This document shows, piece by piece, positions 12,516 to 47,600 of a stretch of 64,000 nt of DNA (position 1 is the stretch's first letter; every line of letters starts with the position of its first letter). Source of the stretch: Eledone cirrhosa (Eukaryota); assembly GCA_964016885.1 (NCBI GenBank), contig OZ024741.1:133610001-133674000 (forward strand), read 5' to 3'. A program made the position numbers and the translations under genes. The notes under the pieces are model-generated. The model did no database searches, had not been told where the DNA came from, and was given only the letters and a program-made list of their open reading frames with translations.

Positions 12516-13065
12516 ATGTATACAGACGTACAGTAGTATATATATATATATATATATATATATATATATATATATATATATATATATACATACATGCACA
12601 CATACATATATGTATGTACGTATACATACTTATATTTAAGTAACAGCCGTACTAAGAGTGAGAAATGAAATTTCGTTTCATTTTTTCCGTTTATCGTTTT
12701 CGGTACCCCGGCCGATTAACTCACTCGATATGCAAATTAGGCTACTCAGCCGTTAATATGCATAAGGAAAGTATATACTTTCAGACGTTCAACCATCTGG
12801 CAGGAAGGTATACGTTGCTGACGATAGCTAATAAGCTTGAAACTAGTACGGCGTTCCTTTGTCAGTGTTGAACAAATGAGCAACGATGGTTGCTAGACAC
12901 TGTACGGCTTAATACGGGATGTTTGTTTACAAACACACCGAGCATTATAATAAATGTTCGGTGAATCCATACGTACATATATATATGTGTGCATGTATGT
13001 ATATATATATATACATACTACTGTACGTCTGTATACATATATGTATGTACGTATACATACTTATA
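12516..13065 (+). mobile_element. Retrozyme family A (~431-nt monomer plus terminal redundancy, preceded by an inverted fragment)
   Basis: tgtatgtacgtatacatactta at 12611 and 13042. 12516-12603 is the reverse complement of ~12985-13037. Contains a hammerhead. Confidence 0.8.
12805..12859 (+). ncRNA. Minimal type I hammerhead ribozyme (family A)
   Basis: Stem I aagg..acgttg / cggcgt.cctt; core CTGACGA; stem II agct-aata-agct; GAAA-CTAG-TA. Predicted cut after A12848. Confidence 0.85.
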
Positions 13066-13083
13066 TATATATATATATATATA

Positions 13084-13765
13084 CTCTTTAACTCTTTTAC
13101 CTGTTCCAGCCATCCGGCTGAGGCCATGCTGGGGCACCGCCCTTGTTGCTACACATTTTATCTCCAACCTGTATTGGTTGGCCACTGGTGCAAGAGGGAG
13201 TTCGTTGCTGCAGCCCTTAGGTTTCCTTCGTACCTTGCTGTGGGCTCATCCGGGATCCTGGATAGCAAGGTGTCGAGATGTTTCTTGAGGACATCCACCT
13301 CCACACCATGCAGATCCCTTAGATCCCTCGGCAGCTTGTTGAAGAGTTGAGGGCCCACGAACCCCCGGCTATTGCAATATCTGCTCCTTATTCTAAATGT
13401 GGAAGACGGAACCTTTGGTACCACACAGTGACGTCCTGTTCGACGGTTGGTCCAGCTCCCAATGCCAAAGTTTGGTGCTAGTCCCTCCAGGATTTTCCGC
13501 ATGTAGATCACTGCGTATCTCTCCCGTCTTCGTTCCAAGGAGTAAAGGTTCAGTTCTGTTAGCCTCTCCCAGTAGCTTATCTCCTTCATCGCCGCAATCC
13601 TCTTGGTGTAGCTTCGCTTGATTGCCTCAAGCTCCGTTGTTAATTTGACACTATGGGGTGACCACAACTGGGAGCAATAGTCCAGGCGGCTTAGGACAAA
13701 TGTCCTCCATAGTGTCAACATGGTGTCTCGATCTCTTGTCCGGAAAGTCCCCAAGATCATGTTTA
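13084..13765 (-). mobile_element. CR1-clade LINE 3' fragment
   Basis: ORF has SRLDYCSQLWSP, SYWERL..LNLYSLERRRERY and GPQLFNKLP. A short 3' UTR runs into (TA)n. Confidence 0.85.
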
Positions 13766-13774
13766 TCATTGATT

Positions 13775-44242: not shown

Positions 44243-45618
44243 AATTGTCTTCAAATTCTTGATATGAGGGAGAAAAAAATAACGATGTTCTCTCACAGAA
44301 TTCATTCCCTCATATGATAATCGATCGATCGATCTATCTCTTATTGAAACATGCGTCGTGATTAAATGATTGGAATTTTACCTTGCCTTCGGATTTTCAT
44401 TTTGATACTTATACTCCGTTTTACATCATCTAGCTGTTCCCTCGAATGGAATTGGAGATATACAAAAGCGTGGAGAACTTAATATTGCTAACATAAAGTT
44501 ATTGGACCATTTTAGACAACCAATAATGCACCTTACTTTATAACAACTATATATATATATATGTATATATTTATATGCACACACACACACATATGTATAT
44601 ATATATATATATATATATATATATATATATATATATATATATATATATATATATATATACACACACACAAACCCACACATATATATATATACATACATAT
44701 GTGTGTGTGTGTGTATATGTATATATATATATATGTGTGTGTATGTGTATACATATACTATATATGTATACACTGGGGTCGATTCAATCGACTTTCCCCC
44801 CTTCCCTTCAAATTGCTGGCCTTGTGCCTAAAGTAGAAACAATTATTAGTCATGTAACTAATCCATTTATCGGTTGGTTTTAGCAACCAAATGGTTATTT
44901 AATTGTCAAATCTCTTTCATCACACTTTCTGTGACCTTTTCAACGACATTTTTGGCCCTTCATGTCGTTTCCCTATTTCGACTTTACTCCATTTTTTTGC
45001 TCATCTCCAAACTAACAGAACAGTCTGATCATGAAATTAACGTTTGAGCCGTTGAGCAATCTAGAAACATGTGCCCCTAACGTAATTCTCAGGGAGATTC
45101 AGAGGAACAATCTATGACAAATCTGGCTCTTCGAATTACTGGTACAATCTATCCGACAGGCATGAGTAGACCCGAGTAATATTTATATATATAATCGTAC
45201 ACACACACACACACACACACACACACACACACACACACACACACATATATATATTGCTGAGCGCATTATGATATAACCGATATATATGAAGAAGAGGAGG
45301 CACCAGCTATCAACTACACCCGGAAATTCCCTCTACTGTGGGATTGATTACACATATTGAATATCCCTACTACTGGACGGACATAAGATTATGAACAAAC
45401 TTTCGACCGGATAGAGAAGCGGACCAATAAGCAACGTAAAACCACTTATTTTCCTGCAGCAACCCGCATTTCGCCTAAAGGCCTAGAACTAAAGGCCATC
45501 CCTCCGTCACTTCATCCGATAACGGACGGACAAGGAATTTTATATGCACATTACATTGACAAAATTGACAAATATTCCCACTGTATCGTGAACGTAATTG
45601 AAATCACTAATATATATA

Positions 45619-46456
45619 CGAGGTGTGTCAGAAAAGTTCCAGGACTGATGCCACAAAAGATTTATTTCAAACCCAAACTTCACACTAAGAGTTTTATCCT
45701 TCAAAGTAATCCCCCTGGAGTATGTAACTGTAATCTTAGCTCTGTGCAGCGATCAAACTTTTTTCTTCATAATTTCATATACATGTCCTCTGTTTCAGGT
45801 CGTCAAGCAATGAGCACAGAGCAATGAACAAACTTGAAGTTTCTAGTACGGTTGGGGAAAACCCTGTCAGAAGCACTGGGATTGCTGCAGCAAGTGTATG
45901 GAGATGAGACGATGTCACGCTCAAGTGTTTTTGAGTGGTGCAAGATGACCCCATGGGCGGAAGGCCCTCAACAACCAGGACTGAGGTCAACGTTGAGCGC
46001 GTCAGGCAGATGGTGCGTAGCGATCGTCGGCTGACTGTTCGACTGATGGCAAATGAGCTGGGCATGAATCGGGACAGCGTCTGGAAGATTCTCACTGAAG
46101 ATTTGGACATGCGGAAAGTCTGCGCGAAGATGGTGCCAAAAACTGCTGAACGATGACCAGAAGGGTCGACGCATGCAAGTGTGTCAGGACATCCTCGAGC
46201 GTCATGGATCTTCGAGTACGACTCGGAGGGGACCCGTTTTGAAGACGTGAACGACATCAAAAACGCCGTGACGACGGAACTGCGGAGGATCCCGGAAGAA
46301 TCCTTCCAGGAGTGCATGCAAGCGTGGCAGAAAAGGATGGAAAAGTGCATTAGACTCCAGCGGGATTACTTTGAAGGAGAAAACTCTTAGTGTGAAGTTT
46401 GGGTTTGAAATAAATCTTTTGTGACATTAGTCCTGGAACTTTTCTGACAAACCTCG
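45619..46456 (+). mobile_element. Internally deleted mariner with ~100-bp inverted ends
   Basis: TA TSDs; closely related to 58308-59597; most of the catalytic domain is deleted. Confidence 0.92.
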
Positions 46457-47220
46457 TATATATAAAGGTAAAAAAGTACAAAAGAATTATAGAGAGAATA
46501 AATGAGAGGAAATGCAGGAAAAATCCGTGATAAATGTCTGAGTGGGGGCGAGTTATAGAGAGTCAGCTATATTCACATTGCTTCGGGTGTTTTGGTCCGT
46601 GCAGTTGCAGCCGGGTGCACCTTACAGGCTGTCCGTGGCTATATGAGGTAAGGTAGGGTGTTGCATGTAGAATAAGAGGTAATTGTTGCTTTTAATTCCC
46701 TCATTATTCTACATCCAACACTGTGGAAGAAATCACGATCATTGAAATATGTATAACGGCTCAATTAATAAAGGACCCTAACATCTTCAACTTCGCATTT
46801 TCCTTTTGGAGTACCGCCATCCTTGTTTTAGGAAGTAATATGACGTTGAGTGCTAGAAGTGAATTGCATCCTTGTATAACGAATATATATATATATATAT
46901 ATATATATGCATGTATATATGTATAGAAATATATATATATAATTGTTTCTACTCTTTGGCACAAGGTCAGCAATTTCCCACTACATTACTGGTACTTTAT
47001 TTTATCGACCCCTGAAAGGCAAAGGCAAAGTTAACCTCGGCGGGATGAAAGGCAAAGTTAATCTCGGCGGGATTTGAACTCAGACCATAAAGTGACGTAA
47101 CTATGCTAGAAAGCATGGCGTCCAACCCTCTACCGATATATATATATAATATATAGAAATATATATACATATATATATATATATATATATATATATATAT
47201 ATATATATATATATATATAT

Positions 47221-47600
47221 ATGGTCTTCTAAATGTTTTAAATTAAACATACAGTATATTGCCAAATATACTATACATACATTCATGTATACATCGCTAT
47301 TTCAGAGCACCAATACTAATACCTATTTTTTGCTGGACCGGCAATCGCTCTGTATAATCAGCTCCTGATTTTTATTGGAATTCTATAAGAATCCAGCTTC
47401 TATAATTCTCGGCAAAGGCAACTGAGTGTGTCGTCTTGATAAACGCTTACACACGAGAAACAGACTGTCTGTCGACCGCTCTCTGTTGTTTTTGCCGAGA
47501 AGTAAGTGACATAGTGACTACTTTAAAACTCATAGCGAATGGTCTTCTAAATGTTTTTATTTTATCATACAGTATATTGCCAAATATACTATACATACAT
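47221..47600 (+). mobile_element. Retrozyme family B, 318-nt monomer plus ~60-nt redundancy; U3-A8 hammerhead at 47430-47479
   Basis: atggtcttctaaatg at 47221 and 47539. gtcgtc-TTGATAA-acg..cga-GAAA-cagactgtctg-TC-gaccgc. Confidence 0.8.

What the first reader, a model, noticed from the sequence alone, without database searches (positions are those of the whole stretch)
12516..47600. Circularly permuted, >1-monomer insertions point to circular RNA templates
Family A copies begin at different points of one ~430-nt circle (12604, 18698, 26399, 36555), and two wrap past their own start (periods 431 and 428). Family B wraps with an 18-nt overlap at 25719-26047 but a ~60-nt overlap at a different phase at 47221-47600. 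D wraps by 38 nt and C by ~200 nt. For A and B the repeated ends are element-internal, so they are not target-site duplications. This is the footprint expected from rolling-circle reverse transcription, or from copying of multimeric RNA.
Basis: partly seen in the sequence, partly recalled or inferred. Interest (0 to 1): 0.8.

Follow-up and report, generated by a model that had tools for sequence, protein, structure and literature searches.

The report
Penelope-driven hammerhead retrozyme families
These repeats are several families of small non-coding mobile elements that carry a predicted self-cutting hammerhead RNA and were likely pasted into TA microsatellites by a Penelope-like retrotransposon enzyme, probably copying round an RNA circle; this kind of element (retrozyme) is known, but the insertion scars here tie it unusually directly to that enzyme.

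Summary
The wraps are real for A (428-431 nt), B (311-318) and C (628); D could not be located. A, B and C each carry a type I hammerhead motif, so they are non-LTR retrozymes; A has over 10,000 exact motif matches in the genome. The permutation is not free. In ribozyme sense, 3' ends sit at one or two fixed sites beside (TA)n (79 of 101 A arms), while 5' ends scatter. Head-to-head pairs nearly always combine one short and one long end (A 15/16, B 18/20). A Penelope-like element (PLE) in the same window does the same (37/39), and a few insertions join a PLE arm to an A or B arm. 81 of 84 arms read through the predicted cut, so cleaved linear monomers are not the usual template. A circle is favoured; an uncleaved multimer is not excluded, and no RNA data were available. 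The circle model and a PLE driver were proposed in print (2014, 2020, 2026); I did not find the tail and pairing evidence for retrozymes in 7 searches. This scan noted similar scars before on other DNA (tRNA-bearing elements).

The parts
12516..13069 (+). Family A copy, 1.2 units, c126 to c217 (short 3' end) with a small inverted piece at 12516-12537; hammerhead core starts 12818, predicted cut after 12848
16942..18697 (-). 5'-truncated Penelope-like element: end of GIY-YIG domain, 3' region, hammerhead with U3-A8 core (about 17035-17126), 3' end 97 nt past the predicted cut at (TA)n
18697..19231 (+). Family A copy joined head-to-head (5' to 5') to the PLE arm; c306 to c273 with a 147-nt internal duplication
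19243..20072 (+). Family C copy, 1.32 units of 628 nt; hammerhead core starts 19745; further C copies at 8898-9168 (+) and 20741-21080 (-)
24350..34089 (.). Segmental tandem of about 2.66 kb (3.6 units) that multiplies one B copy, PLE ends and one A copy; the last unit has no A copy
25719..26047 (-). Family B (subfamily B1) copy, 1.06 units, long 3' end; hammerhead core starts 25926; joined head-to-head to a PLE end at 26062-26145
26186..26338 (.). Head-to-head pair of PLE 3' ends, one long (+97) and one short (+20), between TA runs
26397..26912 (.). Family A head-to-head pair: minus arm c297 to c273, plus arm c308 to c2 (ends at the predicted cut, at the junction of the segmental tandem)
34531..34717 (.). 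Family G head-to-head pair with short and long ends and a type I hammerhead (core 34590); not followed genome-wide
35252..36530 (+). Family F, 1.8 units of 623 nt plus a 146-nt repeat; hammerhead-like three-way junction with a non-canonical core at about 35378-35451
36554..37161 (-). Family A copy, 1.4 units, c95 to c273 (long 3' end); the two passes are identical over 166 nt
44127..44398 (.). Another inverted (head-to-head) element with a hammerhead-like motif, core at 44233 on the minus strand; not followed genome-wide
47221..47600 (+). Family B (subfamily B2) copy, 1.2 units of 318 nt, short 3' end; hammerhead with U3-A8 core starting 47436

Best explanation
Families A, B and C (and probably F) are non-coding elements with a predicted type I hammerhead whose RNA is likely cut to unit length and closed into a circle, and a Penelope-like RT-endonuclease likely copies that circle into a nicked (TA)n tract. 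SHOWN: more-than-unit copies with no seam; hammerhead core with three stems; 3' ends fixed at one or two sites ending in TAT-type microhomology to the target; scattered 5' ends; short-plus-long head-to-head pairs; the same geometry in a co-resident PLE; a few mixed PLE/retrozyme insertions. INFERRED: transcription, self-cleavage and ligation; that the PLE protein primes internally at protein-set sites from both DNA ends; that it runs through the ligated junction and falls off at random, which yields 0.1-2.6 units and the apparent circular permutation; that only copies with two ribozymes (about 700 nt or more for A) can make the next circle.
For: Hammerhead descriptor hits the B1, B2, C and G units and three A insertions with the expected short stem III; shuffles of the units score 0-11 of 1000. 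B1 versus B2 differ by compensatory changes (C3-G8 to U3-A8, new stems I and II). 3' ends: A 79/101 at two sites, B 104/115 at two, C 56/62 at one, F 23/28 at one, PLE 129/147 at two (these four counts still hold the window's segmental copies). Short+long pairs A 15/16, B 18/20, PLE 37/39. Mixed head-to-head joints: PLE-A at 18697 and in L140, B-PLE at 26047/26062. Arms crossing the predicted cut in samples drawn with a query wholly 3' of it: A 27/29, C 28/28, B 26/27. Successive passes of one arm share private variants above unrelated copies (A 0.84 vs 0.24, C 1.56 vs 0.24, B 0.53 vs 0.35 per 100 sites). No fixed difference between last and earlier turns except one site at the target junction of C. 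Longest sampled arms 1.8-2.6 units. Circles of retrozymes are shown by northern blot in coral, mussel and axolotl (PMC7229834).
Against: No RNA run was available, so expression, cleavage and circles are untested here. Rfam finds no hammerhead at gathering score and only a 13-bit HH9 match for B. MFE folding recovers all or most of the hammerhead stems for A, C, F and the PLE but not for B1, and z-scores are weak. A, B1, C and G have U.U at the base of stem II (as in a weakly cleaving axolotl ribozyme, PMC7229834). F fails the descriptor, and the PLE motif has a stem II too long for it. In vitro a lizard PLE uses uncleaved RNA (PMC11167929). Arrays of 3-5 ribozymes exist and could yield linear multimer transcripts. 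Shared variants between passes can also come from later local duplication: a 4.5-unit array has two-unit periodicity (units 1 and 3 identical, neighbours 14-16 differences). C and F have one 3' end and almost no inverted partner, so their driver may be another PLE. All three mixed pairs are long+long, not short+long.
Confidence: 0.6

Rival explanations
1. Same elements and same PLE driver, but the template is an uncleaved linear multimer transcribed from genomic dimers or arrays; no circle is needed.
For: The lizard PLE primes internally on unprocessed RNA and ribozyme mutants do not change insertion in vitro (PMC11167929). Arrays of 3-5 A ribozymes exist among the first 100 listed matches. 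Weak stem II/III could leave RNA uncut.
Against: Daughters of a linear template can be no longer than the source from the priming site, yet 47 of 105 A arms exceed one unit and only 5 exceed two. No unit-specific variants separate last from earlier turns. The ribozyme is kept with compensatory changes, which implies a role for cutting.
Confidence: 0.3
2. The more-than-unit copies arose after insertion by local tandem duplication or unequal crossing-over of ordinary linear elements.
For: L273 shows later duplication of a two-unit block, and L274, L049 and window 36564/36992 have near-identical passes.
Against: All copies map to one seamless circle with a constant period; many are 1.05-1.5 units, which unit expansion cannot make from a shorter copy; passes usually differ by about 4%. 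This process explains some long arrays, not the wrap.
Confidence: 0.05
3. DNA-level rolling-circle or circular-DNA integration (Helitron-like) made the copies.
For: Helitron-like fragments are in the window (ORF 48926-49327) and also favour AT-rich sites (recalled).
Against: Polarity follows the ribozyme strand (fixed 3', truncated 5'), geometry equals that of the PLE, and mixed PLE joints exist.
Confidence: 0.03

Closest known systems
Metazoan non-LTR retrozymes (Cervera and de la Pena 2020, PMC7229834; Li, Clavereau and Pollet 2026, bioRxiv 10.64898/2026.07.22.740005)
   Same: Non-coding units with one type I hammerhead each, GC below 50%, no LTR/PBS/PPT, head-to-tail repeats, co-resident PLEs; circle template and PLE driver were proposed there.
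   Different: Mostly dispersed 0.1-2.6-unit copies in (TA)n rather than arrays; units up to 628 nt; no detectable similarity to the one resident PLE tested, whereas 21 of 57 Xenopus families match pLTRs; fixed 3' ends, tails and head-to-head pairing are mapped here; RNA not tested here.
Penelope-like elements with C-terminal GIY-YIG (Craig et al. 2021, PMC8557442; Frangieh et al. 2024, PMC11167929; Cervera and de la Pena 2014, PMC4209133)
   Same: Partial tandems, inverted 5'-truncated partner, tail at one end from two internal RT start sites, (TA)n targeting, hammerhead near the ORF start; the 2014 paper already suggests ligated circles as template for more-than-unit copies.
   Different: A, B, C and F encode no protein. 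Tails are about 56 nt (A), 28 (B) and 77 (resident PLE) against the 30-40 described. Start sites here end in TAT-type microhomology to the target, while the lizard PLE started without homology in vitro.
Newt satellite 2 type dimeric hammerheads (as described in PMC7229834)
   Same: Family A has a two-base-pair, palindromic helix III region (ACUAGU) that would favour dimeric cleavage.
   Different: Dispersed insertions, unrelated sequence; dimeric activity not tested.

Membership tests
Non-LTR retrozymes | Type I hammerhead in each unit | tested here: met
   A, B, C: descriptor and shuffles, compensatory change B1/B2. Rfam support only weak. F does not meet the canonical core.
Non-LTR retrozymes | Head-to-tail repeats, some with two or more ribozymes | tested here: met
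Non-LTR retrozymes | Short, non-coding, GC below 50%, no LTR | tested here: met
   Units 311-637 nt, GC 0.32-0.36; no protein-like ORF over the units. C and F exceed the 150-450 nt first described but lie within 51-972 nt of the 2026 preprint.
Non-LTR retrozymes | Expressed as linear and circular RNA; self-cleaves | not testable with these tools
   No RNA holder listed; laid runs were contigs.
Non-LTR retrozymes | Target-site duplication when present | not testable with these tools
   Most ends lie in (TA)n; no empty-site allele found.
PLE-mobilised non-autonomous element | Two fixed 3' ends (tail) and inverted 5'-truncated partner | tested here: met
   A and B. C and F: one fixed end, almost no inverted partner, so met only in part.
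PLE-mobilised non-autonomous element | Sequence descent from a PLE pLTR | tested here: not met
   blastn word 7 of A, B, C, F against one full natural PLE copy: nothing under E 0.1. Other PLE families of the genome were not tested.
Penelope-like element (16942-18697 and L178) | Single ORF with RT and C-terminal GIY-YIG | tested here: met
   801-aa ORF with YRDD and YIG motifs (motif reading recalled); GIY-YIG E 0.0007, below Pfam cut-off, on the fragment; no Pfam or PDB hit for the whole protein; Atlas neighbours at 0.96-0.99 include GIY-YIG clusters.
Penelope-like element (16942-18697 and L178) | Partial tandem (pLTR) with hammerhead, tail, inverted copies | tested here: met
   Period about 3.63 kb in L176, L177, L178, L181; ends +20/+97.
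Penelope-like element (16942-18697 and L178) | Clade (Neptune, Nematis, Hydra) by RT tree | not tested
   A Cys-rich linker precedes the endonuclease; no reference set was on hand.

The most novel reading that the evidence does not exclude
In this genome a PLE protein dimer primes both ends of a cut (TA)n site on ONE hammerhead-made RNA circle at two fixed positions and rolls round it, so pLTRs, tails, inverted partners and retrozyme multimers are all rolling-circle overrun; at least four unrelated circular RNA parasites exploit it without PLE sequence, one (F) with a hammerhead-like core that lacks G8 and may be a new catalytic variant.
Probability: 0.25. Interest if true: 0.75.

Novelty: new member of a known kind. 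Interest (0 to 1): 0.45.

Why it matters
Retrozymes were assigned to PLEs by co-occurrence and, in frogs, by pLTR similarity; how they insert was left open. Here the insertion scars give the link directly: same two-site tail, same short-plus-long pairing, and mixed insertions. The small units give exact priming sites, so the question 'does a PLE reverse transcriptase roll on a circle?' becomes testable in vitro with a 318-428 nt RNA. The short-plus-long rule also constrains models of the PLE dimer.

Tried and rejected
Rfam at gathering score: 0 hits in the window; E-value mode on 12000-48000 listed only miRNA-type and similar noise among the 150 of 302 rows shown; 8 short ribozyme regions gave one weak HH9 match; F gave none. 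RNA evidence: no RNA holder listed; X1 laid nothing, and X2, X5, X6, X7 are contigs that cover all repeat types, so they say nothing on expression. Empty sites: none of the 15 joints shown (of 96) removes an element cleanly. An unbiased search for PLE 3' ends returned nothing because the words are too common, so crossing of the PLE cut was not measured. A hint of C 5' ends near the cut vanished in the unbiased sample (0 of 28). Clusters of B 5' ends at c25-27 and of PLE 5' ends 25-50 nt before the cut are taken as alignment breaks between subfamilies. Circular-fold z-scores (-2.7 to -6.7) used a crude shuffle with 40 replicates and are driven by AT hairpins; not used as evidence. A genome-wide dimer count could not be had; a single-motif count was used instead. 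Family D not located. Random circular permutation, true TSDs for A and B, and a Helitron route were rejected.

Full report
Setting. The window is G000:C2:133610001-133674000 of a 3.0-Gb animal genome. It looks cephalopod-like from its repeats; that label is recalled and untested.

Observation. The wraps of A (periods 431 and 428), B (about 311 and 318) and C (628, 202-nt overlap) are in the sequence. D was not located in three scans. The copies of A and B within 24350-34089 are one event multiplied by a 2.66-kb segmental tandem. A fifth wrapping family, F (period 623), lies at 35252-36530.

Ribozymes. A motif scan found hammerhead cores in A, B, C and two further inverted elements. With all three stems required, shuffles of the units score 0-11 of 1000. 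The A reference copy itself (36858) has a damaged stem I and scored only through an alternative long stem; the A copies at 12818, 18781 and 26705 give the expected fold. B1 and B2 are about 79% alike yet keep the fold through compensatory changes, including C3-G8 to U3-A8, a variant known from PLE ribozymes (PMC4209133). A, B1, C and G have U.U and B2 has A.A at the base of stem II. F has three stems round a core one base short (CUGAUA), constant in most of 30 aligned stretches, and fails the descriptor. Rfam gives little help. One exact 30-nt A motif occurs 10,338 times, control 0.

Ends. I mapped arms in 209 fetched loci plus the window after removing duplicates. These loci are the best-scoring 20-30 of 200-1900 candidates per query, not a random sample. 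For A, 79 of 101 3' ends fall at c208-222 or c260-275 (7.3 expected), while 5' ends occupy all eight bins (8-25 per bin, p = 0.012 against uniform). B has two ends about 28 nt apart (104 of 115), C one (56 of 62), F one (23 of 28). The 3' flank is a TA run in 65 of 101 A arms against 10 of 101 5' flanks. Most preferred ends finish in a TAT-type word, but the units hold 11-26 such words, so homology alone does not pick the site.

Driver. 16942-18697 (-) is the 3' part of a PLE. A natural full copy (L178) has an 801-aa RT plus GIY-YIG ORF that starts near its hammerhead and a unit of about 3.63 kb in partial tandems. Its copies end 20 or 97 nt past the predicted cut (129 of 147). In a lizard PLE such a tail equals the stretch between two internal RT start sites (PMC11167929). 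Head-to-head pairs with both ends at preferred sites are short+long in 37 of 39 PLE, 15 of 16 A and 18 of 20 B cases; 14, 8 and 17 further pairs of A, B and PLE had an end elsewhere and were set aside, and the PLE loci were picked with a query holding the long end. Mixed head-to-head joints occur: PLE-A at 18697 and in L140, B-PLE at 26047/26062, beside 58 PLE-PLE, 32 A-A and 28 B-B pairs (segmental copies included). The mixed pairs are long+long. I infer that like pairs come from one RNA primed at two offsets; opposite arms of A do share private variants (0.83 against 0.24 per 100 sites). A, B, C and F show no similarity to this PLE or to each other beyond a 13-nt word. C and F rarely have an inverted partner and may use another PLE.

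Template. In samples drawn with a query wholly 3' of the predicted cut, 27 of 29 A, 28 of 28 C and 26 of 27 B arms run more than 10 nt past it. A cleaved linear monomer cannot template these. 47 of 105 A, 43 of 114 B, 19 of 61 C and 10 of 28 F arms exceed one unit; the longest are 1.8-2.6 units. Passes of one arm share private variants more than unrelated copies, clearly in A and C and weakly in B. Last and earlier turns show no fixed differences in 144-270 sites per family, except one C site at the target junction; earlier turns were few (median 5-27). All this fits a circle. It also fits a homogeneous uncleaved multimer, and arrays do exist: one of five and two of three ribozymes among the first 100 listed matches. 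The five-ribozyme array has two-unit periodicity, a sign of later local duplication, which warns that identical passes are not proof of a circle. I put circle at 0.6 and linear multimer at 0.3.

Known and new. Non-LTR retrozymes, their circles, tandem copying from circles and a PLE driver are in PMC7229834; the circle idea for PLEs is in PMC4209133; co-occurrence and pLTR kinship are in the 2026 preprint. So these are new members of a known kind. Seven literature searches showed no paper on cephalopod retrozymes or on tails, short-long pairing or mixed insertions in retrozymes; the library lacks most subscription papers. What I saw: PMC7229834 parts 2-4 of 6 (results, discussion); PMC11167929 parts 1-2 of 4 (main text); bioRxiv 10.64898/2026.07.22.740005 parts 1-3 of 5 (main text); PMC7761336, PMC8557442 and PMC4209133 passages only; other titles as listings only. 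No supplements were read; Figure S9 of PMC7229834 (model) and the preprint's tables could bear on novelty. Three earlier notes of this scan describe like scars for tRNA-bearing elements in other genomes; none covers this genome or sequence.

Verdict. Real feature, partly misdescribed; retrozyme families very likely mobilised by PLE machinery (about 0.9), circle template likely but unproven. Interest 0.45.

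Noticed in passing
window 24350-34089: The A head-to-head pair sits exactly at the junction of the 2.66-kb tandem (U-A-U-A-U-A-U'), and one arm ends at the predicted cut; the insertion may have caused a 2.1-kb duplication that later expanded.
   Followed up: partly
window 35378-35451 and L151-L175: Family F carries a hammerhead-like junction whose core is one base short (no G8), constant across copies; activity unknown.
   Followed up: partly
window 34531-34717, 44127-44398, 20436-20721, 8321-8843, 1827-2860, 61617-62098: More inverted (head-to-head) elements, most beside TA runs; the first two carry hammerhead-like motifs, so more PLE or retrozyme families are likely present.
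   Followed up: partly
   Followed up: partly
L273 (G000:C1:19313500-19318800): A 4.5-unit A array with alternating 420/422-nt units; alternate units are near-identical, neighbours differ by 14-16 bases.
   Followed up: yes
L083, L172, L196, L104: Same-direction joints between different families (B-F, G-C, A-C) that may be template switches or nested insertions.
   Followed up: no
window 10201-12504 (-); 14258-15961 (-); 21425-22640, 45611-46464, 58304-59604: A 767-aa LINE-type RT ORF, broken ORFs of a second PLE-like element, and mariner-like transposon copies (names from recalled motifs).
   Followed up: no
window 49661-50047, 59605-60282: A tRNA-SINE-like repeat that also occurs as head-to-tail dimers (periods 194 and 233).
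   Followed up: no
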